Below are positions 7,982-27,887 of a stretch of 42,970 nt of DNA, one piece after another (the stretch's first letter is position 1; each line of letters opens with the position of its first letter). The stretch is from Saprospiraceae bacterium (GTDB lineage Bacteria; Bacteroidota; Bacteroidia; Chitinophagales; Saprospiraceae): the NCBI GenBank assembly GCA_033720735.1, contig JAWWBX010000004.1, positions 1 through 42,970 on the forward strand. The letters run 5' to 3'. Both the position numbers and the translations under genes were made by a program. The notes under the pieces were generated by a model. It was not told where the DNA came from, did no database searches, and saw only the letters and a list, made by a program, of their open reading frames with translations.

Positions 7982-8566
7982 TTAAGTGGTCACCGCGATA
8001 GGATCGATCACTGCGCAAAGCCGCTGGAAGATCTCCTCGATCGACCCCACACCATTGACCGCATGCGACTTGCCGTGCTGAGCATAATGCTCGAAAACAG
8101 GCGTGGTTTCCTGTTCATACACTGCAATGCGATTGCGGATGATCCCGGCATCATTGTCATCCGGACGTCCGGAGGTCTTGCCCCGCAACAGGATGCGCTG
8201 TACAATCTCATCCTCCGGGACATCCAGGGCGACCAGCGCGGAGACTGCAGTGCCGCGTTCGTCAAGCAGGCTGTCCAGTGCCTTTGCCTGGTCCGTTGTT
8301 CTCGGGAAGCCGTCGAAAATGAAACCGCGCGCCTGCGGGAATTCATCGACACGGTTCTTCAGCATACCGATCGTCACCTCGTCGGGAACGAGCTCACCCC
8401 GGGTCATGTAACCCTTGGCGCGCAGGCCCAGCTCCGTTTCATTGCGCATCTCGTTGCGGAACAGATCGCCGGTCGAGATATGGATCAGCTGGTACTTCTC
8501 AACCAGCTTGTCGGCCTGGGTCCCCTTACCCGAACCGGGCGGACCAAAAAGGATGAGATTCAACAT
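7982..8566 (-). CDS. adk: adenylate kinase
   Basis: 194 aa with P-loop GPPGSGKGTQA, and the NMP-binding and LID motifs (GDLFR, GFPRT, RPDD). Confidence 0.95.
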   Translation of the reverse strand: MLNLILFGPPGSGKGTQADKLVEKYQLIHISTGDLFRNEMRNETELGLRAKGYMTRGELVPDEVTIGMLKNRVDEFPQARGFIFDGFPRTTDQAKALDSLLDERGTAVSALVALDVPEDEIVQRILLRGKTSGRPDDNDAGIIRNRIAVYEQETTPVFEHYAQHGKSHAVNGVGSIEEIFQRLCAVIDPIAVTT

Positions 8567-9262: not shown

Positions 9263-10042
9263 CTAGTGAATGGTAAAACGATCGCGGTCGGCCAGAAAAT
9301 TGTACTCGGAGCGAAATTGCCGGAGCGCGGCCAGGTTGAGGGTGATCGTCCGCACGTCCTCTTCTGCGGGTGATGCGCAGATCAGGTGTCCGGTCATGTC
9401 GTAGGCGGAGGAAGCACCGACATACCGGTTGGACAGCGGGTCTTCGCCGACCCGGTTGACGCCGACAACATAGCAGAGATTCTCGATGGCACGGGCACGC
9501 AGCAGCGCTTTCCATGCTTCGACCCGTGGCGCTGGCCAGTTGGCCACGTAGATGAGGACGTCGTAGTCAACATCATTGCGGCTCCACACCGGGAACCGCA
9601 GATCGTAACATACGAGAGGGCAGACCTGCCACCCCTTGACTGACTGGATCAAGCGATGGTTGCCAGGTATATAGTGCTCATTTTCGCCGGCATAGCTGAA
9701 AAGGTGCCGTTTGTCGTAGTGGGCAAGGGTTCCGTCTGGAGCGACACTCAGGAGTCGGTTGTAGTAACGGCCTTCCTCAACAATCACCTGGCTCCCCATG
9801 CAAACGCATTGCATTCGCGCTGCAGTGTGGGTGAGCCACTGCACCACTGCGCCGGACATGTCCTGTGCCACCCGTTGCGGCTCGATGGCAAACCCGCTGG
9901 CAAACATTTCGGGCAGCAGCAGCAGGTCGACCTGCTGATCGAGCTGAGCAATGAGCCGATCAAGATTGGTAATGTTTGCTTGCCAGTCCTCCCAGATGAG
10001 GTCAGGCTGGATATAGCCAATGATCAAGGAGTCTGCCTGCAT
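9263..10042 (-). CDS. carbon-nitrogen hydrolase family amidohydrolase (Nit2/omega-amidase-like)
   Basis: CN-hydrolase catalytic triad context: LLPEMF (Glu), Lys, and VCYDLRFP (Cys). 259 aa. Confidence 0.8.
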   Translation of the reverse strand: MQADSLIIGYIQPDLIWEDWQANITNLDRLIAQLDQQVDLLLLPEMFASGFAIEPQRVAQDMSGAVVQWLTHTAARMQCVCMGSQVIVEEGRYYNRLLSVAPDGTLAHYDKRHLFSYAGENEHYIPGNHRLIQSVKGWQVCPLVCYDLRFPVWSRNDVDYDVLIYVANWPAPRVEAWKALLRARAIENLCYVVGVNRVGEDPLSNRYVGASSAYDMTGHLICASPAEEDVRTITLNLAALRQFRSEYNFLADRDRFTIH

Positions 10043-10107
10043 GGTGGTCGGTTTGGCAGCTCAAGATACGCAGTCCAGCACACGCCGTGCTGTCTCAACA
10101 GGATGGA

Positions 10108-10779
10108 TTATTCTGAGGCCTCTTCGGTGGCCGGTGCGTCACCGCCTTCAGCCTCTCCGGCATCGCCGCCTTCTTCACCTTCCTCATCTTCATCACCCTC
10201 TTCACCTTCGGCTACTTCGGTAGCGGTCTTCAGCGCTCTCGGGATCTGTACGGAGGCCACGGGCATATTGCCGTCATTCAGTATCAGCACGCCCTCGGGT
10301 ACCCGACATTCCTTTACACGCACCGATTGTCCCACCTGCAATTGCGAGACATCAAGCACGACTTCGGTCAGCAATTTTTCGGCGGTTGTCATGACGCTGA
10401 TGCGACGGAGCTTCTGGATGAGTTTACCGCCTGCCTTCAAGCCCGGTGCCGTTCCGGTAAATCGGACGGGCACTTCGACTTTGATCTTGCGACCTGGCAC
10501 CAGTTCCTGAAAATCGATGTGCACGATGTCTTCTGTGACCGGGTGGAACTGCACATCGCGGATGATGCAGCGTACCGGCTTGCCGTCAAGTTCCAATTCT
10601 ACGACTTTGAAATCAGCCGTGTAGATGGCGTCACGTACGGCGTTGAATTCGACCGCGATCGGATTGACATCCTCGCCACCGTAGACAACTGCCGGGATCA
10701 ACCCGTCGTTTCGTGTTGCCCGGGCACCTTTCGAACCGGTCATTTCGCGTGATGATGCCTTGACTGCCACAGTTTCCAT
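10108..10779 (-). CDS. rplY: 50S ribosomal protein L25 / general stress protein Ctc, with a long acidic C-terminal tail
   Basis: The N-terminal L25 fold (RNDGLIPAVVYGG) and the Ctc C-domain are followed by about 35 aa of E/D/G-rich tail. Confidence 0.85.
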   Translation of the reverse strand: METVAVKASSREMTGSKGARATRNDGLIPAVVYGGEDVNPIAVEFNAVRDAIYTADFKVVELELDGKPVRCIIRDVQFHPVTEDIVHIDFQELVPGRKIKVEVPVRFTGTAPGLKAGGKLIQKLRRISVMTTAEKLLTEVVLDVSQLQVGQSVRVKECRVPEGVLILNDGNMPVASVQIPRALKTATEVAEGEEGDEDEEGEEGGDAGEAEGGDAPATEEASE

Positions 10780-10893
10780 CGTCTGTCAGTTTGATTGATT
10801 GAAAAAGCGGGCGCAAAGATAATGGAAAGATTGATTTATCGCGTGTATTGGCGCTGATAGATTGACTGGAAACCGGGCCGGTGACGTCCCTGA

Positions 10894-11856
10894 TCAATCC
10901 TGACCGACAAACAGTGCTGAGATCGAGCGGTGCTCGTGCATGTTGCGAATGGCGCGGGCAAAGAGTTTGGCCGACGACAGCACTTTGATCTTGGGTGACT
11001 TCTGATTGAGGGGAATGGTGTCGGTCACAATGACCTCGGTCAGTTCGGATTGCGCGATCGTTTCATAGGCCTTGCCTGACAACACAGGATGGGTGCAGAT
11101 CGCCCGGACCGACACGGCCCCTTTTTTGCGCAGGGCACCTGCTGCCTTGGCCAGCGTACCTGCTGTATCCACCAGGTCATCGATCAGGATCACGTCGGCC
11201 CCTTCGACTTCGCCGATCACCGTCATGCCCGCCACTTCATTGGCACGCTTGCGGTACTTGTCGCAAATGACCATTTCACACCCGAAGTGATTGGCGTAGT
11301 GCCGCGCACGCTTGACGCCGCCGACATCCGGCGATGCGAAGATCACGTTGGTGAGGTCCTGCTTTTCGAGGTATGGAACGAAAATCGCGTTGCTCTGCAA
11401 ATGGTCGACCGGGAGGTCGAAGAATCCCTGGATCTGGTCTGCGTGCAGATCCATGGTCATGATCCTGTCGGCTCCGGCTGCCTGCAGCAAGTTGGCGATG
11501 AGCTTTGCAGAGATCGGCACCCGTGGTTTGTCCTTGCGATCCTGTCGTGCATACCCGTAGTAAGGCATCACTGCAGTGATATATCCCGCCGAGGCCCGCT
11601 TGGCGGCGTCGATCATCAATAACAGTTCCAGCAGATTGCTGGCTGGCGAAAACGTCGATTGAATAAAGAACACGTACGCGCCACGCACTGATTCGTGGAT
11701 GACCGGTTGCATCTCGCCATCGCTAAACCGGGAAAGCTCAAGCTTGCCAAGGGAGTACCCGTAGTAATCTGCGATGCGTTCTGCGAGGTAGTACGATGAG
11801 GTTCCGGAAAAGAGCTTGACTTCCACGTCCTGACTGAATTTGAGATGTGGTGGCAA
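10894..11856 (-). CDS. prs: ribose-phosphate pyrophosphokinase
   Basis: KLFSG..., RFSDGE, VRGxxVFxIQS, and the PRPP-binding loop DDLVDTAGT. The start codon appears to be TTG. Confidence 0.93.
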   Translation of the reverse strand: MPPHLKFSQDVEVKLFSGTSSYYLAERIADYYGYSLGKLELSRFSDGEMQPVIHESVRGAYVFFIQSTFSPASNLLELLLMIDAAKRASAGYITAVMPYYGYARQDRKDKPRVPISAKLIANLLQAAGADRIMTMDLHADQIQGFFDLPVDHLQSNAIFVPYLEKQDLTNVIFASPDVGGVKRARHYANHFGCEMVICDKYRKRANEVAGMTVIGEVEGADVILIDDLVDTAGTLAKAAGALRKKGAVSVRAICTHPVLSGKAYETIAQSELTEVIVTDTIPLNQKSPKIKVLSSAKLFARAIRNMHEHRSISALFVGQD

Positions 11857-12028
11857 AATTAACCGGATTAGGCTAAAAATGGCACGAGACGTTGTCGCCT
11901 AACGATTTTACCCTCTGGACAGTGACCTGTCGTTCGCCGAATTTCCATCGTGCTTGGTCTGAGAATCCAATTCGCTTAAACTCTTTGCCTGGAATTCGCG
12001 TACTTACTTGTAAAGGACCGGATCAAAC

Positions 12029-19602: not shown

Positions 19603-20259
19603 ATGGCAACGACAACACCTCCGTTCAAAAGCATCCTCCTTCCGTTTGTGATCATGTTTTGCAGCATGACACTGACAAGCCAGGAACACTCCAACGGATA
19701 CATCGGCATCCGGTTGGCAGGCAATGACTTCAGCGGCACGACCAGGCATGATCTCGACGATACCGAGATCAAGTTTGACAAACGTACCAATATTGAGATC
19801 CTCGGAGCGCGCAGGATTTCGCAGGGGCTTCTGATCAGGGTGTCAGTCGGGTATACACAAGTGGAAGAGAAGCGCCTGTATGTCAATTACGACTATCGCC
19901 ATAGTGGTGTATACACCCGGATAGGGATTGTCGCGGACAGCGAATTGGACACGCGCTTTGCACTGCATCCCGGACTGGCTCTCTACTATGCCAAATTCGC
20001 TGAACGCGGGACATACACCTTGACAGGCCAGAGTTTTGGTGATCTCACGGGGCAAGTGCGAAGAGGTCTTCATGCCTTCTCCCTCGAACCGCACCTGGAC
20101 CTGCGGTTAAGGCTCATGCAACGCCTTGCGTTGCAGACTTCCTTCAAGTATAATTGGCTGTTGACAAGATCCAAACCCGATTCGCATCCGGTCATCCATA
20201 TACCCGGCCGGGGTATGAAGGATGTGGGTCTGGATCTTTCCCTGGTCTATCAGTTCTAG
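19603..20259 (+). CDS. small outer-membrane beta-barrel protein (OmpA-like, ~8 strands)
   Basis: Signal peptide MATTTPPFKSILLPFVIMFCSMTLTSQE, amphipathic alternating beta-strand segments, and a C-terminal ...LSLVYQF ending in Phe, the typical OMP sorting signal. Confidence 0.45.
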   Translation: MATTTPPFKSILLPFVIMFCSMTLTSQEHSNGYIGIRLAGNDFSGTTRHDLDDTEIKFDKRTNIEILGARRISQGLLIRVSVGYTQVEEKRLYVNYDYRHSGVYTRIGIVADSELDTRFALHPGLALYYAKFAERGTYTLTGQSFGDLTGQVRRGLHAFSLEPHLDLRLRLMQRLALQTSFKYNWLLTRSKPDSHPVIHIPGRGMKDVGLDLSLVYQF

Positions 20260-20396
20260 TCCCCTCCCGACCCGTGAATTGAGATGATGCAATGGATACC
20301 GTGCTTTCCATATCTCGTCTCCGGTTACATCCCCGTATCTTTGGAGCGATCCTTGTAACACGATTGTGGATGTCCGGTACTGGGCATTGGTAGTCA

Positions 20397-20404
20397 TACA
20401 TTTG
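20397..20404 (+). promoter_or_regulatory. Bacteroidota-type -7 promoter element TAcaTTTG (TAnnTTTG) upstream of deoC
   Basis: gtcaTACATTTGagca lies 56 nt upstream of the homology-defined deoC ATG (20460). No clean -33 TTTG is present. Confidence 0.35.
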
Positions 20405-20459
20405 AGCAATGGGGACGGTAAAGGAAAAACATCGCAGCAATGGCAAGAACCTGCCAGGC

Positions 20460-21413
20460 ATGGAGCAAAAGCGCAATGAGGGGGTTCCGCTGGATCTCGA
20501 CCTGATCAATGAGACGCTGGTCAATCGCAGCGCAGTAGAACGGCGCGCAGCAACGATGGGCAAACGTCGCTCGATCAAAAAGGAGTGGCAGGCCGCCTGG
20601 CTGTTGCGGGCTGTAACGTGCATTGATCTGACAACACTGGCGGGTGATGATACGCCGGGTAATGTGCAGCGCCTGTGTGCAAAAGCCCTGCATCCCGTGC
20701 GCCGCGACCTGCTCGACGCCCTGGGCATGGCCGATGCGGGTCTGACGGTCGCTGCTGTCTGCGTTTATCACAATCTCATCGCCGAGGCCAGGAAAGCGCT
20801 GAAGGGTACCAATCTGCCCATCGCCGCTGTCTCAACCGGTTTTCCGGCCGGCCAGATCCCCCTCAAGGAGAAATTGAAACAGATCAAATTGTCCGTCGCA
20901 GCCGGAGCTTCCGAGATCGACATCGTGATCAGTCGCGCACATGTGCTCCGGTCAGACTGGAAGAATCTCTACAAGGAAGTCGCTCTCTGCCGGGAAGCCT
21001 GCGGTGAGGCGCATATGAAGACCATCCTGGCGACGGGTGAAATTCCCACCCTGACCAAGGTGGCGCGGGCCAGCCAGGTGGCGATGATGGCAGGGTCCGA
21101 TTTCATCAAGACCAGCACCGGCAAGGAAAGCGTCAACGCCACACTTCCTGTATCCCTGGTCATGATCCGCGCCATTCGTGATTACTACGAACGGACAGGA
21201 TACAAAGTGGGGTTCAAGCCGGCCGGAGGTATCCGCAAGGCGAAACAAGCCCTTGAATGGCTCATCCTGATGAAAGAAGAACTCGGCAATGACTGGCTGA
21301 GTCCGGACCTTTTTCGCTTTGGAGCCAGCGGGTTGCTCAGCGATATTGAACGCCAACTCGAACACCATGTCACCGGACGCTATTCCGCGTCATACCGTCA
21401 TCCCATGTCCTAA
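20460..21413 (+). CDS. deoC: deoxyribose-phosphate aldolase, long eukaryote-type (DERA-like) form
   Basis: Near-colinear identity with animal DERA over the whole length (KKEWQAAWLL, IDLTTL, GDDT, QRLC, FPAGQ, GEAH.KTILATGE, MMAGSDFIKTSTGKE.VNAT, GFKPAGGIR, LLSDIERQ..HHVTGRY). The homology-based start is MEQKRNEG at 20460; the track start is 20409. Confidence 0.9.
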   Translation: MEQKRNEGVPLDLDLINETLVNRSAVERRAATMGKRRSIKKEWQAAWLLRAVTCIDLTTLAGDDTPGNVQRLCAKALHPVRRDLLDALGMADAGLTVAAVCVYHNLIAEARKALKGTNLPIAAVSTGFPAGQIPLKEKLKQIKLSVAAGASEIDIVISRAHVLRSDWKNLYKEVALCREACGEAHMKTILATGEIPTLTKVARASQVAMMAGSDFIKTSTGKESVNATLPVSLVMIRAIRDYYERTGYKVGFKPAGGIRKAKQALEWLILMKEELGNDWLSPDLFRFGASGLLSDIERQLEHHVTGRYSASYRHPMS

Positions 21414-21424
21414 ACTGACCCCCA

Positions 21425-23812
21425 ATGAAAGTCAAGAAGATCTTCGAAACAATGGAATACGGACCGGCACCGGAAAGCCCGGATGCCGCGCAGGACTGGC
21501 TTGCCGGGCATGATCGCAAATTCCAGTTGTTTATCAATGGCAAATGGACGTCGCCACAGAGTAAGAAGTATTTCGACAGCATCAATCCCTGTGACACCAG
21601 CAAGCTGGCCAGGATCGCCGAGGCCAACGACAAGGATGTCAACAAGGCAGTGCGCGCAGCACGCAAGGCCCTAGCCGGCTGGCTGGAGATCGGGCCGCAC
21701 CAGCGCGCACGCTATTTGTATGCCATTGCCCGCCAGATCCAGAAACACTCGCGTCTCTTTGCCGTCCTCGAATCTCTGGACAATGGCAAGCCGATCCGTG
21801 AGACGCGCGATATTGACATTCCCCTGGTCGCCAGGCATTTCTATCACCATGCCGGCTGGGCACAGTTGATGGAATCCGACCTCAGGGATTATCGACAAGT
21901 CGGGGTGGTCGGTCAGATCATCCCCTGGAATTTCCCGCTGCTGATGCTGGCGTGGAAGATCGCACCAGCCCTGGCCATGGGCAATACCGTCGTACTCAAG
22001 CCAGCAGAGTTTACCTCCCTCACGGCATTGCTATTTGCCGAGATCTGCCAGAACATCGGCCTGCCCCCGGGAGTGGTCAACATCCTCACCGGTGCCGGCA
22101 AGACCGGCGCGGCGATCGTGGATCATCCCGATATCGACAAGATCGCCTTCACCGGCTCCACCGAAGTGGGGCGGATCATCCGGCATGCTACCGCCGGATC
22201 GGGCAAGAAGCTGTCGCTGGAGCTGGGTGGCAAGTCGCCTTTCATTGTGTTTGAGGACGCCGACCTGGACAGCGTGGTCGAGGGCGTGGTAGACGCCATC
22301 TGGTTCAACCAGGGGCAGGTGTGCTGTGCCGGCTCACGACTGTTGGTACAGGAAAGTGTGGCCGACCGGCTCTACCGCAAGATTCGGGCGCGGATGGAAA
22401 AATTGCGCATGGGCAATGCGCTCGACAAAGGCATTGACATCGGCGCCATTGTGGCACCGGTCCAGCTTAAAACGATCACCGAATTGGTGCAGCAGGGCAT
22501 CGCGGAAGGGAGTACCTGCTGGCAGCCCTCATGGGCGGTGCCCCGGGACGGGTACTTCTACCCTCCTACCCTGTTTACAGATGTCTCGCCGAGCTCCACC
22601 ATTGCACAGGTCGAGATCTTTGGGCCGGTACTGGTGGCCATGACCTTCCGTTCGCACAACGAGGCGATACGATTAGCCAACAACACACGCTACGGACTGG
22701 CCGCCAGTGTCTGGACGGAGAATATCAACCTCGCACTCGACATTGCGCCAAAAGTGAAGGCTGGCACCGTCTGGATCAATTGTACCAACGTGTTTGATGC
22801 TGCCTCCGGGTTTGGCGGCTATCGCGAATCAGGCTTTGGCCGCGAAGGTGGCCGGGAAGGATTGTTTGAGTATGTCAAACCGCTCATCGAGGACAACCTG
22901 CTCGACAAACCGCCCGGTCCGGCGTATCAAACAGCGCAGAAAAAGCGCCCGTCGGCACCGGAGGATGGAATGGACAGAACGGCCAAAATGTATATTGGCG
23001 GACGACAGGTGCGACCGGACGGTGGTTACAGTATGACCGTGCGCAGCGCCAGCGGCCTGTATCTGGGAGAGGTCTCCAAAGGCAACCGCAAGGATATCCG
23101 GAATGCCGTGGAAGCCGCCCACGCCGGAAGCCAGTGGGACGCCATGACAGGACATGCCAGGGCGCAGGTGCTCTACTACCTGGCCGAAAACCTCTCTGCG
23201 CGCCAGGCAGAGTTCGCGTTGCGACTGGCCGAGCAACTCGAAGTGGATATGGATCAGGCCAATCTGGAGGTCAGGTCTTCTATCGAACGCATCTATACCT
23301 ATGCCGCCTGGGCCGACAAGTACGACGGCCGTGTGCACCATACCACCCAGCGCATGGTGACCCTGGCGATGCCCGAACCCATCGGGGTAATGGCAGTGAT
23401 TTGCCCCGACCATGCACCGCTGCTTGGCTTCATTTCGACTGTCATCCCTGCGATCACCATGGGCAACCGGGTTGTCGTGGTACCCTCGCAGCTTGCCCCG
23501 CTTTCGGCCACTGACCTCTATCAGGTCCTGGAAACCTCGGATGTGCCCGCAGGGACCATCAATATCGTGACGGGTGCGCATGCCGAGCTGATGCCGGTGC
23601 TCGCCAAACATGATGATGTGGACGGGATCTGGTATTTCGGCTCAAAGGAGGGAAGCAAGGAGGTTGAAATGCTCTCCGCCGACAACATGAAGCGGACCTG
23701 GGTCAACAATGGCAAGTTCCGCGACTGGTTTGATCCGGCACATGGTGAAGGCGAGATGTTCCTGCGCAAAGCCAGCCAGATCAAGAATATCTGGGTTCCG
23801 TACGGGGCTTAG
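21425..23812 (+). CDS. ALDH16-family aldehyde dehydrogenase (full catalytic ALDH domain plus C-terminal ALDH16-specific domain)
   Basis: 795 aa. Residues 1-~505 form a complete ALDH with catalytic Glu (LELGGKSP) and Cys (QGQVCCAGSR) and an NAD-binding GxxxxG. Residues ~520-795 form a second, partial ALDH-like Rossmann region with no catalytic Cys or Glu, the architecture described for ALDH16. Confidence 0.85.
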   Translation: MKVKKIFETMEYGPAPESPDAAQDWLAGHDRKFQLFINGKWTSPQSKKYFDSINPCDTSKLARIAEANDKDVNKAVRAARKALAGWLEIGPHQRARYLYAIARQIQKHSRLFAVLESLDNGKPIRETRDIDIPLVARHFYHHAGWAQLMESDLRDYRQVGVVGQIIPWNFPLLMLAWKIAPALAMGNTVVLKPAEFTSLTALLFAEICQNIGLPPGVVNILTGAGKTGAAIVDHPDIDKIAFTGSTEVGRIIRHATAGSGKKLSLELGGKSPFIVFEDADLDSVVEGVVDAIWFNQGQVCCAGSRLLVQESVADRLYRKIRARMEKLRMGNALDKGIDIGAIVAPVQLKTITELVQQGIAEGSTCWQPSWAVPRDGYFYPPTLFTDVSPSSTIAQVEIFGPVLVAMTFRSHNEAIRLANNTRYGLAASVWTENINLALDIAPKVKAGTVWINCTNVFDAASGFGGYRESGFGREGGREGLFEYVKPLIEDNLLDKPPGPAYQTAQKKRPSAPEDGMDRTAKMYIGGRQVRPDGGYSMTVRSASGLYLGEVSKGNRKDIRNAVEAAHAGSQWDAMTGHARAQVLYYLAENLSARQAEFALRLAEQLEVDMDQANLEVRSSIERIYTYAAWADKYDGRVHHTTQRMVTLAMPEPIGVMAVICPDHAPLLGFISTVIPAITMGNRVVVVPSQLAPLSATDLYQVLETSDVPAGTINIVTGAHAELMPVLAKHDDVDGIWYFGSKEGSKEVEMLSADNMKRTWVNNGKFRDWFDPAHGEGEMFLRKASQIKNIWVPYGA

Positions 23813-23892
23813 GGATATGAGCCTGCCTGTCCGAGGCGGAGGGTTCAAGGATTCAAAGATTGATTGCCGGCAGGCAGACTCGAGGAATCATC

Positions 23893-24591
23893 TCAAGCCA
23901 GGGAGAGGGCAATGTGCATCATGTCGGTAAATGATTGCTCGCGTTCTTCCGCCGAAGCGGCCTCTCCGGTAAGGATATTGTCACTGACAGTCACCACCGA
24001 CAGAGCCCGGGCTCCGAAGCGCGCTGCCAGCGTATAGAGCATTTTCGTTTCCATCTCCACGGCAAGCACACCGTGCTGTGTCCACTTGTCCCAGCGGTGG
24101 GGGTCACCGTCATAGAAAATGTCCGTGCTGAAGATCGATCCCTGCAAGGTCGGGATGCCCAGGTCTTGTGCCGTCTGATACGCCTTCATCAACAGCGAGA
24201 AATCAGCCGTTGCGGCAAAGTCCTTACCTCCAAAGAAAAGCTGGTTGACGTTCGAATCGCCCGAGGCACTCATGGCCAGAATGACCTGGCCGATCTTGAG
24301 TTTCTGTTGGATGGCGCCACAAGTCCCGACACGCACCAACTGTTTGACTCCGTACTCATTGAGCAATTCGTTGACATAGATGCCGAGGCTGGGCATCCCC
24401 ATCCCCGAGCCCTGGATTGAGACACGTTGCCCCTGGTAAGTACCGGTGTAACCAAACATGCCGCGCACCCGGTTGTAGCACTCGGCATCTTCGAGCAGGG
24501 TTTCGGCCACGTGCCTTGCCCGCAGCGGATCTCCGGGCAACAACACGGTCTCCGCAATCTGGCCCGGTTTCGCTTCTAGATGTAAACTCAT
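23893..24591 (-). CDS. deoD: purine nucleoside phosphorylase, DeoD type (hexameric NP-I family)
   Basis: [25 protein letters not shown]...[11 protein letters not shown]...VRVGTCGA... matches DeoD. The track start at 24678 is GTG; the ATG at 24591 gives 232 aa. Confidence 0.9.
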
Positions 24592-24717
24592 GGATGACGT
24601 TGCAGTCGTTCGCTCCTCTTGCTGCAAGAATGTTACCAAATCGCCCAACAAACGGAAAATGGACCGAAAATTGCACACTATGTCCGGAAGTCAGACTGTC
24701 CACTACAGCACAGATCC

Positions 24718-25599
24718 ATGCCTGCACCACTATCACCATCCGAACTGATCGTCAATCCGGATGGCAGCATCTACCATCTGAATCTGCGACCGGAGCAGAT
24801 CGCACCAACGGTCATATTGGTGGGCGACATGGGGCGCGTAGCGCGCATCAGCCGGCATTTTGATCACATCGAGCACATCGTTCAACGACGGGAATTCCTC
24901 ACCCATACCGGCACCTGCGGTGGCATACCGGTTTCCGTGCTTTCGACCGGGATCGGCACCGACAATATCGATATCGTCATCAACGAACTGGATGCCGCTG
25001 TCAATATCGATCTGCGTACCAGGGAGATCCGTGCGCACCGCAAGTCACTCAATCTCATTCGCATTGGAACCTCCGGGGCTCTGCAGCCAGACATTCCGGT
25101 GGGCACACCGGTCGTCTCAGAGTACGGGCTGGGATTCGATGGCCTGCTTTATTACTACGACTTCGACTACTCCCAAGACGAGCTCGAAACAATGCGCGCC
25201 TTTGGCGAACAGGTAAAGTGGCCCGAGGCGCTTGCCAAACCCTACCTGGTGCGGTGTGCACCGGAGCTGATGTCGGTGATCGGCAGGGACATGCCCAGCG
25301 GGATCACGGCGACGGCGACAGGTTTTTACGGGCCGCAGGGGCGGAGGCTCTACCTGACGCCCCGGGATACTACGCTCAATCAGCAGCTCACCGATTTTCG
25401 CCATGGTCGTCTGCGGGTGATGAACTATGAAATGGAAACCTCGGCGCTCTACGGTCTGGGGCGTCTTATGGGGCATCGCTGCCTGACATGTTGTGCCGTC
25501 ATCGCCAACCGCATTCGGCAGGAGTACAGCCAAGATCCCAAGGTGGTTGTTGATCAGCTGATCGAAGTCGTCCTCGACAGGCTGAAAGATCTGCACTGA
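24718..25599 (+). CDS. nucleoside phosphorylase, PNP/UDP family 1 (uridine-phosphorylase-like)
   Basis: YHLNL, VILVGDMGRV, STGIG, RIGTSGALQP and MNYEMETSALYGL parallel E. coli Udp (FHLGL, AIVPGDPDRV, STGIG, RIGTTGAIQP, MNYEMESATL). The track start at 24619 is TTG; the ATG is at 24718. Confidence 0.7.
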   Translation: MPAPLSPSELIVNPDGSIYHLNLRPEQIAPTVILVGDMGRVARISRHFDHIEHIVQRREFLTHTGTCGGIPVSVLSTGIGTDNIDIVINELDAAVNIDLRTREIRAHRKSLNLIRIGTSGALQPDIPVGTPVVSEYGLGFDGLLYYYDFDYSQDELETMRAFGEQVKWPEALAKPYLVRCAPELMSVIGRDMPSGITATATGFYGPQGRRLYLTPRDTTLNQQLTDFRHGRLRVMNYEMETSALYGLGRLMGHRCLTCCAVIANRIRQEYSQDPKVVVDQLIEVVLDRLKDLH

Positions 25600-25737: not shown

Positions 25738-25914
25738 ATGAAAGAACGCCGACGCCGCGGCTGGTTGCTGATCATTATGGGGGTGATCATGTTGATGACG
25801 CATTTCCTGCAACTCGACAGGGTGTTCATCCTGGGTGGCGTTCTTTTCGTGGCGCTGGGCTGTGCTGAGCTGTTTGGCAACAACCGGTACCGGCGCAAAT
25901 ACCGCAGCAAATGA
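25738..25914 (+). CDS. small (58 aa) two-helix membrane protein, translationally coupled to the downstream cytochrome
   Basis: MKERRRRGWLLIIMGVIMLMTHFLQLDRVFILGGVLFVALGCAELFGNNRYRRKYRSK has a basic N-terminus, two hydrophobic segments and a basic C-terminus. Its stop overlaps the cytochrome ATG (ATGA). It could instead start at the internal Met (MGVIM). Confidence 0.4.
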   Translation: MKERRRRGWLLIIMGVIMLMTHFLQLDRVFILGGVLFVALGCAELFGNNRYRRKYRSK

Positions 25915-27887
25915 AAACGCCGCGACGCGTTCCACAGACCACCGTCACCGCTCTGCTCGTGCTCGGAGCATGCCTCCTGCTGGCCATGAGCCCTTTGCGC
26001 AACCGTAATCACGACCGGTTTTACAGCGCCGAAGCGTTGCACGCCTATCTGGCAAACAGCCCTTTTCTACCCACCCTGGAAGACGTCAGCTACTTCGCAG
26101 ATGACAGCGTTTGCGGCGGATGTCACGGATTCGACCCGATCGCTTTCAGCATGGTAGACGATGACGGCCGCGACGTCAATGTCTACGATGACTGGCGTAC
26201 CTCGATGATGGCCAACTCGGCGAAAGATCCGTTCTGGCGCGCCAAAGTGAGTCAGGAGATCGCGGTCAACCCCGGTCATAGCCTGGAACTACAGACCAAG
26301 TGCACGTCGTGTCATGCACCGCAGGGACATTTTACGGCGATGGCACAGGGCGCCACCCACTACACCATTGCGGAGATGCTTGCCGATTCGGTCGCCCTCG
26401 ACGGCGTCTCGTGTGGCGCCTGTCACAGCACCAGCCTGCAGCACCTGGGCAATCGCTTTTCCGGCGAGATGTATTTTGACACCAACCGGGTCATCTACGG
26501 ACCCTATACTGAGCCATTCGCCGCCCCGATGACGGACTTCGTCGGCTTTGAGCCGGTGTACAGCCCCCACATCCATGATGCCGGCATCTGCGCATCATGC
26601 CATACCCTGATCACCGCATCGGTTGACCTGGACGGCAATCCGACGGGGACCGAATTTATCGAGCAGGCCACCTACCACGAATGGCTCAACAGCGACTTTG
26701 CGGACGACGGGCTGACCCCCGTGACGTGTCAGGGGTGCCACATGCCGCAGTTGGCTGATTCAATTGTGATCTCCTCCCAGTATTTGTTCCTCAAAGGACG
26801 CAGCCCGTATGGCTTGCACGACCTTGTCGGCGGCAACACGATGATGCTGCAATTGATGAAAAACAACAAGGAAGCACTGGGGATCCGCGCTCCAGACTCG
26901 CTGTTTGACGAAACCATTGCCAAAACATTTGACATGCTTCGGCAGCAGACGCTCGATCTGAGCCTCGACTTTACCGGGCAGGACGGGGACACTGCATACT
27001 TCGACGTGGCGCTCTTCAACAAGTCCGGCCATAAATTCCCTTCCGGCTACCCGTCACGCAGGGCGTTCATCGAGCTTTGGGCCACCACCGAAACCGGAGA
27101 TACCCTCTTCCACAGCGGAAGCCTGGGCACGGATTTCGAAATTACCGGACAGGATGATGCGATAGAACCTCATCACCGCACGATCCGATCACAGGACGCC
27201 GTGCAGATCTACGAAATGGTGCCGGCCGATGTCAACGGTGCGTTTACAACGATCCTCGAACGCGCCTTCATGACGCTCAAAGACAACCGCCTGCCCCCCC
27301 GTGGCTTTACCACCGGCCATCCGACGTATGACACCACCCGGATCTACGGTGCAGCCCTCAACGATCCGGACTTCAACCATAACGGGAGTGAAGGATCGGG
27401 CTCAGACGTAGTTGGCTATCACATCCCCGTGCATGATTATGAAGGCATGTTGCAGGTGACTGCACGCGTGCACTATCAGTCATTGCCCCCAAAGTGGATG
27501 GCGCCATTGTTTGCCATGAGCACTCCTGAGATCGAGACGTTTCGTAGCATGTACGACCAGGCAGATTTGTCGACCGTGATCATCGCAGAACAGCGCCTGG
27601 ACAGCATTGCCATATCACCCCCAACCTCCGTGCAAGCTCATCTGCGGCCTGAGGTATTGTCGGTCTATCCCAATCCCGTTCGGGACGGCGTTCTGTACAT
27701 CGCCAATCCGACGGGAGCGCCTGTTTCGCGCATCCGGATCCATGATGCCAGCGGACGATTGACAAATACCTTCCAGGGTTTTCAACCAGCGGTGCGTCTT
27801 CCTGACGATCCCCAACTGTATTTTGTGATCATCGAGACAGAAGACGGTACTGTTGCGCACAGGGTCGTGCGCTTGCCTCAGCAGTGA
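25911..27887 (+). CDS. secreted pentaheme c-type cytochrome with a T9SS C-terminal sorting domain
   Basis: Signal peptide, then five CxxCH motifs (CGGCH, CTSCH, CGACH, CASCH, CQGCH) in the first ~270 aa. A ~300 aa non-heme domain follows, then a type-A T9SS CTD (VYPNPVRDGVLYIANPTGAPVSRIRIHDASGRL...LYFVIIETEDGTVAHRVVRL). Confidence 0.85.
   Translation: MKTPRRVPQTTVTALLVLGACLLLAMSPLRNRNHDRFYSAEALHAYLANSPFLPTLEDVSYFADDSVCGGCHGFDPIAFSMVDDDGRDVNVYDDWRTSMMANSAKDPFWRAKVSQEIAVNPGHSLELQTKCTSCHAPQGHFTAMAQGATHYTIAEMLADSVALDGVSCGACHSTSLQHLGNRFSGEMYFDTNRVIYGPYTEPFAAPMTDFVGFEPVYSPHIHDAGICASCHTLITASVDLDGNPTGTEFIEQATYHEWLNSDFADDGLTPVTCQGCHMPQLADSIVISSQYLFLKGRSPYGLHDLVGGNTMMLQLMKNNKEALGIRAPDSLFDETIAKTFDMLRQQTLDLSLDFTGQDGDTAYFDVALFNKSGHKFPSGYPSRRAFIELWATTETGDTLFHSGSLGTDFEITGQDDAIEPHHRTIRSQDAVQIYEMVPADVNGAFTTILERAFMTLKDNRLPPRGFTTGHPTYDTTRIYGAALNDPDFNHNGSEGSGSDVVGYHIPVHDYEGMLQVTARVHYQSLPPKWMAPLFAMSTPEIETFRSMYDQADLSTVIIAEQRLDSIAISPPTSVQAHLRPEVLSVYPNPVRDGVLYIANPTGAPVSRIRIHDASGRLTNTFQGFQPAVRLPDDPQLYFVIIETEDGTVAHRVVRLPQQ

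What the first reader, a model, noticed from the sequence alone, without database searches (positions are those of the whole stretch)
20460..21413. Eukaryote-type (animal DERA-like) deoxyribose-phosphate aldolase in a bacterium
The deoC product aligns colinearly over its whole length with animal DERA; many 6-12 aa blocks are identical to the human enzyme as I remember it. It does not resemble the compact ~220-260 aa bacterial DeoC. It has the N-terminal extension typical of the eukaryotic form and the same ...HHVTGRY...HPMS C-terminus. Either an ancient shared long DERA lineage or lateral transfer would be notable.
Basis: partly seen in the sequence, partly recalled or inferred. Interest (0 to 1): 0.55.

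Follow-up and report, generated by a model that had tools for sequence, protein, structure and literature searches.

The report
Ordinary bacterial long-form deoxyribose-phosphate aldolase
The gene really is about 64% identical to animal DERA, but this long form is a common bacterial type native to this Saprospiraceae genome, so it is ordinary; the notable by-product is that it is almost always paired with an ALDH16 aldehyde dehydrogenase, whose human relative has no known function.

Summary
Window 20460-21413(+) (alternative start 20409) encodes a 317/334-aa DeoC-family aldolase. It is 61-66% identical over its full length to database-verified vertebrate DERAs and 39% identical to E. coli DeoC. 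It shares the N-terminal extension and the HHVTGRY..HPM tail with the animal enzymes.

Full-length long forms at 64-84% identity occur across Bacteroidota. They also occur in Chloroflexota, Gemmatimonadota, Acidobacteriota, Myxococcota, Alpha/Beta/Gammaproteobacteria and Armatimonadota. More distant long forms (about 46%) occur in Bdellovibrionota and Berkelbacteria. In neighbour-joining trees the window protein groups with Bacteroidota (85-87% bootstrap) and never joins animals first (0/300). Composition is native and the catalytic residues are intact.

The unexpected result concerns the gene 11 nt downstream (21425-23812). It is an active-type ALDH16, matching the Loktanella ALDH16 structure 6MVR at E=1e-287 and verified human ALDH16A1 at 38% identity, colinear end to end. 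Long DERA and ALDH16 are adjacent in 75/76 informative genome loci and 71/73 metagenome loci. They are fused in one 1142-aa protein. DeoD lies next door. The likely pathway is deoxynucleoside to dR5P, then G3P plus acetaldehyde, then acetate.

The parts
20460..21413 (+). deoC, long-form deoxyribose-5-phosphate aldolase (DERA), 317 aa from this start
   Evidence: Matches TIGR00126 at 145 bits, above the 117 cut-off, and Pfam DeoC. It is 61-66% identical to vertebrate DERA and 39% to E. coli DeoC. D154/K217/K253 correspond to E. coli D102/K167/K201, and the phosphate site G221/K222/G256/G257/S290 is conserved. The AF2 model has pLDDT 85.8, and its best fold match is E. coli DERA 1JCL with TM 0.90.
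20409..20459 (+). Possible extra 17 N-terminal codons (the alternative ATG used in the public annotation, 334 aa); probably leader or a disordered tail
   Evidence: P0001 (334 aa) is the NCBI-annotated form. The residues before 'RNEG' are not conserved in length or sequence among Bacteroidota homologues and are absent in animals. AF2 pLDDT is below 50 for residues 1-18.
21425..23812 (+). ALDH16-family aldehyde dehydrogenase, 795 aa: a catalytic ALDH domain plus the ALDH16-specific C-terminal domain. It starts 11 nt after the deoC stop.
   Evidence: Matches PDB 6MVR/6MVU (Loktanella ALDH16) at E=1e-287 over residues 1-795. It is 38% identical and colinear end to end with human ALDH16A1; that sequence was verified exact as Q8IZ83. 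The catalytic motifs PWNFP (N169), ELGGKS (E266) and QVCCAGS (C300) are present. It is adjacent to long DERA in 75/76 and 71/73 informative loci.
23893..24678 (-). deoD, purine-nucleoside phosphorylase, convergent with the deoC-ALDH16 pair
   Evidence: TIGR00107 deoD equivalog at 303 bits (cut-off 232) and NF004489 at 344 bits; Pfam PNP_UDP_1. A homologous phosphorylase also follows ALDH16 in Bacteroidota loci L002, L004 and L005 and in metagenome loci L082, L084, L086 and L138.
24619..25599 (+). Second PNP_UDP_1-family phosphorylase (uridine-phosphorylase-like, below family cut-offs), divergent from deoD
   Evidence: Pfam PNP_UDP_1 at 98 bits. TIGR01718 scores 116 bits, below its 280 cut-off. 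The listed TTG start overlaps deoD by 60 nt, so the true start is probably further downstream (inference).

Best explanation
This is a native, vertically inherited Bacteroidota (Saprospiraceae) deoC gene. It encodes the long subtype of class I deoxyribose-5-phosphate aldolase. That subtype is widespread in bacteria and is also the one found in animals.

The enzyme is a TIM barrel. Lys217 forms the Schiff base with deoxyribose-5-phosphate, and Asp154/Lys253 relay protons. The retro-aldol reaction yields glyceraldehyde-3-phosphate and acetaldehyde.

The gene is very probably co-transcribed with the ALDH16 gene 11 nt downstream. I infer that ALDH16 oxidises the toxic, DERA-inactivating acetaldehyde to acetate with NAD(P)+. 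The neighbouring DeoD phosphorylase feeds the pathway from purine deoxynucleosides, through a phosphopentomutase encoded elsewhere.

Shown here: family membership, conserved catalytic residues, fold, phylogenetic placement, native composition, and near-obligate DERA-ALDH16 adjacency plus a natural fusion. Inferred: the substrate of ALDH16, co-transcription, and any physical coupling.
For: Family and catalytic site.

Host and distribution: an exact match to a Saprospiraceae MAG protein, with thousands of Bacteroidota homologues. Full-length long forms at 64-77% identity occur in Chloroflexota, Gemmatimonadota, Acidobacteriota, Myxococcota, Alpha/Beta/Gammaproteobacteria and Armatimonadota. More distant long forms occur in Berkelbacteria and Bdellovibrionaceae.

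Phylogeny: the clade of Bacteroidota plus the window protein has 85-87% bootstrap support, and the window never joins animals first (0/300).

Native gene: GC 0.579 and GC3 0.676 lie within the window's range. Housekeeping neighbours include lon, obg, prs, L25 and a T9SS-tailed protein.

Coupling to ALDH16: an 11-nt spacer in the window. In genome loci, 75/76 informative cases have ALDH16 downstream on the same strand, 71 of them within 400 nt. In the reverse test, 68/73 have DERA directly upstream (median gap 21 nt) and 3 more have it within 1.9 kb. The 1142-aa DERA-ALDH16 fusion is a continuous ORF.

ALDH16 activity: the crystallised Loktanella ALDH16 has a close orthologue (1227 bits, full length) next to long DERA in Roseobacter. 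That enzyme has aldehyde dehydrogenase activity on aliphatic aldehydes (PMC12041015).

Pathway context: deoD is adjacent. In a Burkholderia locus the pair is followed by a PfkB kinase and an ABC permease. This layout fits the kinase/aldolase deoxyribose pathway shown by mutant fitness in Burkholderia and Paraburkholderia (PMC6365646).

Rationale for a dedicated ALDH: DERA is inactivated by acetaldehyde through Cys47 (PMC6244999), and the equivalent Cys101 is invariant here.
Against: No enzymology or expression data exist for this protein or for any bacterial long form examined here.

The characterised ALDH16 was reported active on medium-chain aldehydes such as hexanal (PMC12041015). Acetaldehyde is my inference.

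Phosphopentomutase, thymidine phosphorylase and deoxyribokinase are absent from the 43-kb window.

Promoter and terminator scans were at chance level and do not cover Bacteroidota promoters, so the operon structure is inferred from spacing only.

The trees are NJ with Kimura distances, rooted on a long E. coli branch. The position of animals relative to the core bacteria is unresolved (animal monophyly 44-49%).
Confidence: 0.85

Rival explanations
1. Recent lateral transfer of an animal DERA gene into this bacterium, or eukaryotic contamination of the assembly.
For: There is 61-66% full-length identity to vertebrate DERA with shared extensions. One near-identical bacterial-type protein is deposited under an isopod name, flagged UNVERIFIED_CONTAM (P0052). 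This shows that mix-ups between bacterial and animal assemblies do occur.
Against: The gene is more similar to bacteria of its own phylum (74-84%) and of other phyla (64-72%) than to animals. It groups with Bacteroidota at 85-87% bootstrap and never joins animals first (0/300). Its composition is native. It sits in a conserved bacterial gene pair among bacterial housekeeping genes. There are no introns and no mobile-element genes nearby.
Confidence: 0.01
2. The long DERA-ALDH16 module does not serve deoxyribose-5-phosphate and acetaldehyde. The aldolase might cleave another 2-deoxy or related sugar phosphate. Alternatively, ALDH16 might oxidise the other product, for example glyceraldehyde-3-phosphate in a GapN-like reaction, or a longer aldehyde.
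For: ALDH16 is much larger and more specialised than an ordinary acetaldehyde dehydrogenase. Its reported in-vitro activity is on hexanal-type aldehydes, and its pocket is lined by an aromatic box (PMC12041015). Apart from deoD in Bacteroidota and a PfkB kinase in Burkholderia, the pair has no other consistently conserved neighbour.
Against: All dR5P-binding and catalytic residues of E. coli DERA are invariant across the 49 long forms aligned. The animal member of the same subtype is an experimentally confirmed dR5P aldolase (Salleron 2014, cited in PMC6244999). The deoD and PfkB-kinase contexts fit deoxynucleoside or deoxyribose catabolism.
Confidence: 0.12
3. The adjacency reflects only co-regulation of two independent detoxification or salvage functions, with no metabolic hand-over between the two enzymes.
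For: No direct evidence of interaction exists. In animals the two genes are not reported as functionally linked. Mammalian ALDH16A1 has lost its catalytic residues (PMC10650815).
Against: Adjacency holds in about 97% of informative loci in both directions, across seven or more bacterial phyla, with median gaps near 20 nt. Independent contigs carry a continuous fusion ORF. This pattern is typical of consecutive pathway steps or complexes.
Confidence: 0.1

Closest known systems
Animal DERA (human DERA, 318 aa; EC 4.1.2.4)
   Same: Length, N-terminal extension, internal insert and C-terminal HHVTGRY..HPM tail are shared. Identity is 61-66% over the full length, and all catalytic and phosphate-binding residues are identical. 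The window protein belongs to the same long subtype.
   Different: The window protein is bacterial and branches with Bacteroidota rather than with animals. It may carry up to 17 extra non-conserved N-terminal residues. It is encoded directly upstream of a catalytically competent ALDH16. In mammals the two genes are not reported as functionally linked, and ALDH16A1 is a pseudoenzyme.
E. coli DeoC (259 aa; structures 1JCL, 1JCJ, 5EKY)
   Same: It has the same class I aldolase TIM barrel (Foldseek TM 0.90, 37% identity). The Schiff-base Lys, the Asp/Lys relay, the phosphate site and the acetaldehyde-sensitive Cys are all shared. Sequence E-value is about 1e-42.
   Different: E. coli DeoC lacks the ~45-aa N-terminal helices and the ~14-aa insert. 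It sits in the deoCABD operon without ALDH16.
Bacterial ALDH16 (Loktanella sp., PDB 6MVR; Liu & Tanner 2019) and human ALDH16A1
   Same: The downstream gene matches 6MVR over its full length (E=1e-287). It is colinear with human ALDH16A1, including the C-terminal domain (38% identity). Like the bacterial enzyme, it has the catalytic triad.
   Different: The window gene is the Bacteroidota orthologue. Human ALDH16A1 lacks the Asn, Glu and Cys of the triad (PMC10650815). I found no paper in the searchable library that mentions the DERA linkage.
Short type-1 DeoC (~220 aa; e.g. Thermus 1J2W, Thermotoga 3R12, Mycobacterium 3NDO)
   Same: Same family and chemistry.
   Different: Similarity is much weaker (E=1e-8 to 1e-17, partial coverage). 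These enzymes lack the N- and C-terminal elements.

Membership tests
DeoC/DERA class I aldolase (EC 4.1.2.4) | Sequence match to the curated equivalog model above its cut-off | tested here: met
   TIGR00126 scores 145.2 bits against a cut-off of 117.3. Pfam PF01791 scores 81.9 bits.
DeoC/DERA class I aldolase (EC 4.1.2.4) | Schiff-base lysine plus the Asp/Lys proton relay (E. coli K167, D102, K201) and the phosphate-binding loop residues | tested here: met
   K217, D154, K253, G221, K222, G256, G257 and S290 align with the E. coli residues. All but K222 are invariant in the 49 sequences; K222 is Lys in 46 of 49.
DeoC/DERA class I aldolase (EC 4.1.2.4) | (beta/alpha)8 TIM-barrel fold | tested here: met
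   The AF2 model has pLDDT 85.8. Its best Foldseek hits are E. coli, Shewanella and Colwellia DERA, with TM 0.89-0.91 and rmsd 2.2-2.6 Å.
DeoC/DERA class I aldolase (EC 4.1.2.4) | Cleavage of deoxyribose-5-phosphate to G3P and acetaldehyde | not testable with these tools
   This requires an enzyme assay.
Long (animal-like) DERA subtype | The ~45-aa N-terminal extension (RN.G..LD...VN..AV.RRA...RR.VKK.WQAAWLL), the insert P(V/I)R.D(L/I)L, and the C-terminal HHVTGRY..HPM tail | tested here: met
   Alignment of 22 Bacteroidota sequences (the window protein and 21 homologues) and 17 vertebrate sequences, and alignment across phyla.
Gene of eukaryotic origin in a bacterium (animal-to-bacterium HGT) | Nested within a eukaryotic clade; patchy or absent in related bacteria; atypical composition | tested here: not met
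   The protein groups with Bacteroidota at 85-87% bootstrap and joins animals first in 0/300 replicates. Homologues are ubiquitous in Bacteroidota and many other phyla. Composition is native.
ALDH16 family (downstream gene) | ALDH catalytic domain followed by the family-specific ~300-aa C-terminal domain, with a full-length match to a characterised member | tested here: met
   6MVR matches at E=1e-287 over residues 1-795. Two Aldedh stretches are found. The protein is colinear with human ALDH16A1 (sequence verified).
ALDH16 family (downstream gene) | Catalytic Asn/Glu/Cys triad (active bacterial type, as opposed to the mammalian pseudoenzyme) | tested here: met
   N169 (PWNFP), E266 (ELGGKS) and C300 (QVCCAGS) are present, and are nearly invariant across the 10 bacterial sequences. 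Human has PPTF, LGTES and GPGG at these positions. The residues correspond to Asn165, Glu261 and Cys295 of 6MVR (PMC12041015).

The most novel reading that the evidence does not exclude
Long-form DERA and ALDH16 may form an ancient, nearly obligate two-enzyme module, sometimes fused into one protein. In it, ALDH16 is the dedicated oxidiser of DERA-derived acetaldehyde, possibly in a physical complex that uses the long form's extra N- and C-terminal elements. Animals carry both halves. This would give the first concrete functional hypothesis for the orphan ALDH16 family. It would also suggest that the gout/urate-associated human pseudoenzyme ALDH16A1 is a relic or regulatory partner of deoxynucleoside-sugar catabolism through DERA. 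I found no paper in the searchable library that makes this link. I could not read Liu & Tanner 2019 to exclude prior mention.
Probability: 0.35. Interest if true: 0.6.

Novelty: already known. Interest (0 to 1): 0.3.

Why it matters
The flagged gene does not matter much in itself. It is a correctly annotated, native deoC of a subtype common in bacteria. The 'animal-like' look arises because animal DERA belongs to a bacterial subtype, not the other way round.

Two points are still useful. First, anyone screening for eukaryote-like genes in bacteria should treat long DERA as a false-positive class. Bacterial long forms also turn up as contaminants in animal assemblies.

Second, the near-universal DERA-ALDH16 pairing, together with a natural fusion, gives a directly testable function for ALDH16. 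The physiological substrate of that family is unknown. Its human member is linked to gout and serum urate without an accepted mechanism.

Tried and rejected
1. Sigma-70 promoter and intrinsic-terminator scans of 20200-24000 gave counts at chance level and say nothing about the operon structure.

2. Clustering all neighbouring ORFs of 80 genome loci found no conserved partner other than ALDH16. High-GC antisense ORFs produced spurious clusters.

3. A first NJ tree of 50%-identity cluster representatives split arthropod DERAs (mite, fly) from the other animals. With named taxa they rejoin the animals, but with weak support (44-49%). I treat the split as long-branch noise.

4. My recalled human DERA sequence was not an exact database entry, so all quoted identities use verified vertebrate sequences. 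My recalled ALDH16A1 sequence was exact.

5. Liu & Tanner 2019 could not be retrieved by DOI or by PMC id.

6. Literature searches for a DERA phylogeny or HGT discussion found nothing relevant.

7. tblastn found no second deoC in the window. The rest of the genome could not be checked.

8. The third protein-database search was not spent. It would have returned only mammalian or only Bacteroidota ALDH16 sequences and would not have resolved the origin in animals.

Full report
**What is there.** It matches Pfam DeoC (81.9 bits) and the NCBIfam deoC equivalog TIGR00126 (145.2 bits against a cut-off of 117.3). The exact 334-aa protein is already public as 'deoxyribose-phosphate aldolase [Saprospiraceae bacterium]' (P0001). 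The 17 residues before the second Met are not conserved among homologues. They are also predicted disordered (pLDDT below 50). Either start gives the same conserved protein.

**Checking the observation.** I retrieved named vertebrate DERAs from the protein database and compared them by BLASTP.
- Identity to vertebrates is 61-66% over essentially the full length (query 5-317 against subject 4-318). Lamprey is 66%, elephant shark 65.5%, anole 65%, newt 65%, cat 63.5%, opossum 62.5% and ostrich 61%.
- E. coli DeoC, taken from NC_000913, is 38.6% identical over residues 49-288 only.
- The alignment of the window protein with 21 Bacteroidota and 17 vertebrate sequences shows the shared N-terminal extension, the shared insert, the long identical blocks and the HHVTGRY..HPM tail.

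The statement that the protein does not resemble bacterial DeoC is only true for the short type-1 enzymes (E=1e-8 to 1e-17). E. coli-type DeoC structures are clear relatives (E about 1e-42).

**Is it a working aldolase?** All residues that define E. coli DERA align and are conserved. These are the Schiff-base Lys167, the Asp102/Lys201 relay, and the phosphate site Gly171/Lys172/Gly204/Gly205/Ser238. In the window protein they are K217, D154, K253, G221, K222, G256, G257 and S290. All are invariant across the 49 long forms except K222, which is Lys in 46 of 49. The roles of these residues come from established DERA enzymology; Lys167 is cited in PMC6244999. An AlphaFold2 model built on the alignment has mean pLDDT 85.8. 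It superposes on E. coli, Shewanella and Colwellia DERA with TM 0.89-0.91 normalised to the target. In the model the N-terminal extension forms two extra helices (residues 30-35 and 40-52 in 334-aa numbering) ahead of the barrel.

**Is it 'eukaryote-type'?** No, for the following reasons.
- The homologue search saturated at 8000 candidates. The best 120 are 75-84% identical and 309-354 aa long (one of 448 aa). Every named one is from Bacteroidota (Saprospiraceae, Chitinophagales, Aureispira, Cytophagales, Flavobacteriaceae, Yeosuana), apart from one flagged contaminant in an isopod assembly.
It still returned full-length long forms at 64-77% identity from Chloroflexota, Gemmatimonadota, Acidobacteriota, Myxococcota, Alpha-, Beta- and Gammaproteobacteria and Armatimonadota.
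- Cluster look-ups added Berkelbacteria (CPR), Bdellovibrionaceae, Longimicrobiaceae and an alphaproteobacterial MAG. They also identified invertebrate DERAs from thrips, tardigrade, louse, mite and fly.
- On a trimmed alignment the window protein is 74-80% identical to other Bacteroidota and 63-72% to the other core bacterial phyla. It is about 46-48% identical to three deep-branching long forms (Longimicrobiaceae, Berkelbacteria, Bdellovibrionaceae) and 48-66% to animals.
- In NJ trees (Kimura distances, 200 and 300 bootstraps, E. coli DeoC as outgroup) the window groups with Bacteroidota at 85-87%. Bacteroidota never join animals before other bacteria (0/300). Monophyly of all bacterial long forms to the exclusion of animals gets 1.3%.
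- Where animals attach is unresolved. Animal monophyly has 44-49% support, and the root lies on a long branch.
- GC (0.579), GC3 (0.676) and codon usage of the gene match the window. The surrounding genes are ordinary bacterial ones: lon, a gyrB/parE-type topoisomerase subunit, obg, L25, prs, a tricorn protease and a T9SS-tailed protein.

The long form is common in this phylum and the gene branches with bacteria. A shared long-DERA lineage does exist, but animal DERA is a member of a bacterial subtype, not the reverse.

**What the surroundings show.**
- Eleven nucleotides after the deoC stop begins a 795-aa gene (21425-23812) with two ALDH-like stretches.
- Its best solved relatives are 6MVR/6MVS/6MVT/6MVU (E=1e-287, residues 1-795). 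These are the structure of ALDH16 from Loktanella sp. (PMC8160307, PMC12041015).
- It is colinear end to end with human ALDH16A1 at 38% identity. The human sequence I supplied was confirmed as the exact entry Q8IZ83/NP_699160.2.
- The window protein keeps the catalytic Asn, Glu and Cys (PWNFP, ELGGKS, QVCCAGS). The human protein has lost them, as the literature describes for the mammalian pseudoenzyme (PMC10650815, PMC12041015).

**Strength of the DERA-ALDH16 association.**
- Genome loci found through DERA: 76 of 80 have enough downstream sequence to judge. Of these, 75 carry a full-length ALDH16 orthologue (55-75% identity) downstream on the same strand, 71 of them within 400 nt. The one exception is a Fimbriimonadales locus.
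- Reverse test on 80 metagenome loci found through ALDH16: 73 are informative. Of these, 68 have a long DERA directly upstream on the same strand (median gap 21 nt). Three more have it within 1.9 kb and two have none.
- A 1142-aa protein found on several metagenome contigs fuses the two. It reads as one continuous ORF with DERA, a short linker, then ALDH16.
- The ALDH16 next to long DERA in Roseobacter insulae is a close orthologue of the crystallised Loktanella enzyme (1227 bits over the full length).
- E. coli deoC lies in deoCABD without such a gene.

**Pathway context.**
- In the window, a DeoD-type purine-nucleoside phosphorylase (23893-24678, minus strand; TIGR00107 at 303 bits, cut-off 232) lies immediately beyond ALDH16, followed by a second, uridine-phosphorylase-like gene.
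- Related Bacteroidota loci have the same phosphorylase after ALDH16.
- In a Burkholderia locus the pair is followed by a PfkB-family kinase and an ABC permease. This resembles the kinase/aldolase deoxyribose clusters shown by mutant fitness to be needed for growth on deoxyribose in Burkholderia and Paraburkholderia (PMC6365646). I could not verify that those strains carry the long form.

**Most likely mechanism.** The proposed steps are:
1. Deoxynucleosides are phosphorolysed by DeoD.
2. Deoxyribose-1-phosphate is isomerised by a phosphopentomutase that is not in this window.
3. The long DERA cleaves deoxyribose-5-phosphate through a Lys217 Schiff base into G3P and acetaldehyde.
4. ALDH16 oxidises the acetaldehyde.

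The last step is inferred from the adjacency, the fusion and the intact catalytic triad. It is also supported by the reported aldehyde dehydrogenase activity of the Loktanella enzyme (PMC12041015). A further argument is that DERA is inactivated by acetaldehyde through Cys47 (PMC6244999), whose counterpart Cys101 is invariant here. The reported in-vitro preference of ALDH16 for hexanal-type substrates is the main caution.

**Novelty.** The gene itself is already known and correctly annotated. I found no paper in the searchable library that links ALDH16 to DERA or deoxyribose. The co-mentions are incidental proteomics or expression lists. Reviews state that the function of ALDH16A1 is unknown and that it is associated with gout and urate (PMC10650815, PMC12041015). 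I could not read the primary ALDH16 structure paper. The link may also be visible in gene-neighbourhood resources. I therefore rate the pairing as a promising lead rather than an established novelty.

**Limits.**
- The trees are distance-based.
- Eukaryote sampling is limited to animals.
- The rest of the MAG could not be searched for a short deoC or for deoB, deoA or deoK.
- Co-transcription and the ALDH16 substrate are inferred.

Noticed in passing
window 21425-23812 (+); loci L002-L081 and L082-L161: The gene downstream of deoC is an active-type ALDH16. Long DERA and ALDH16 are adjacent in about 97% of informative loci in both search directions, across seven or more bacterial phyla. Both have animal counterparts (DERA, ALDH16A1).
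   Followed up: yes
L162:108-3536 (protein P0243; also P0408, P0409): A natural 1142-aa fusion of long DERA and ALDH16 reads as one continuous ORF on a 66% GC metagenome contig. The organism is unknown.
   Followed up: partly
window 23893-24678 (-) and 24619-25599 (+): A DeoD purine-nucleoside phosphorylase and a second, uridine-phosphorylase-like PNP_UDP_1 gene are divergently arranged. As listed, their 5' ends overlap by 60 nt, so the TTG start at 24619 is probably too far upstream. The second enzyme scores below every curated family cut-off.
   Followed up: partly
L078:5881-11980 (Burkholderia sp. 4M9327F10): Here the long DERA-ALDH16 pair is followed by a PfkB-family kinase (9879-10841) and an ABC permease (10931-11980). 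This looks like a deoxyribose uptake and utilisation cluster.
   Followed up: partly
window 20397-20459: The sequence TACATTTG at 20397-20404 fits the Bacteroidota TAnnTTTG promoter element (consensus from my own knowledge). It lies only about 5 nt before the annotated ATG at 20409. With the non-conserved, disordered first 17 residues, this hints that 20460 is the real start. This is a weak inference from sequence alone.
   Followed up: partly
protein P0052: A protein 78% identical to the window DERA is deposited as 'UNVERIFIED_CONTAM hypothetical protein [Idotea baltica]'. A similar flagged entry exists for Acipenser sinensis (P0238). Long DERAs in animal assemblies are not always of animal origin.
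   Followed up: no
protein P0295 (821 aa): A metagenomic protein carries three separate DeoC-domain stretches in one chain, apparently a tandem-repeated aldolase. P0276 (501 aa) and P0386 (444 aa) have about 180-200 extra N-terminal residues with no Pfam match.
   Followed up: no
L063:9548-10897 and L079:9565-10914 (Acidobacteriota): A second, single-domain ALDH paralogue (45-46% identical to the ALDH16 catalytic domain) lies immediately downstream of ALDH16.
   Followed up: no
window 25911-27887 (+): A 658-aa protein with a multihaem cytochrome c7-like region and a T9SS type A sorting domain, apparently a secreted or surface cytochrome of a Bacteroidota organism.
   Followed up: no
L043 (Fimbriimonadales), L125, L134: These are the rare exceptions to the pairing. 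L043 has long DERA with no ALDH16 within 6 kb downstream. L125 and L134 have ALDH16 without DERA in the 3.7 kb and 1 kb available upstream.
   Followed up: no
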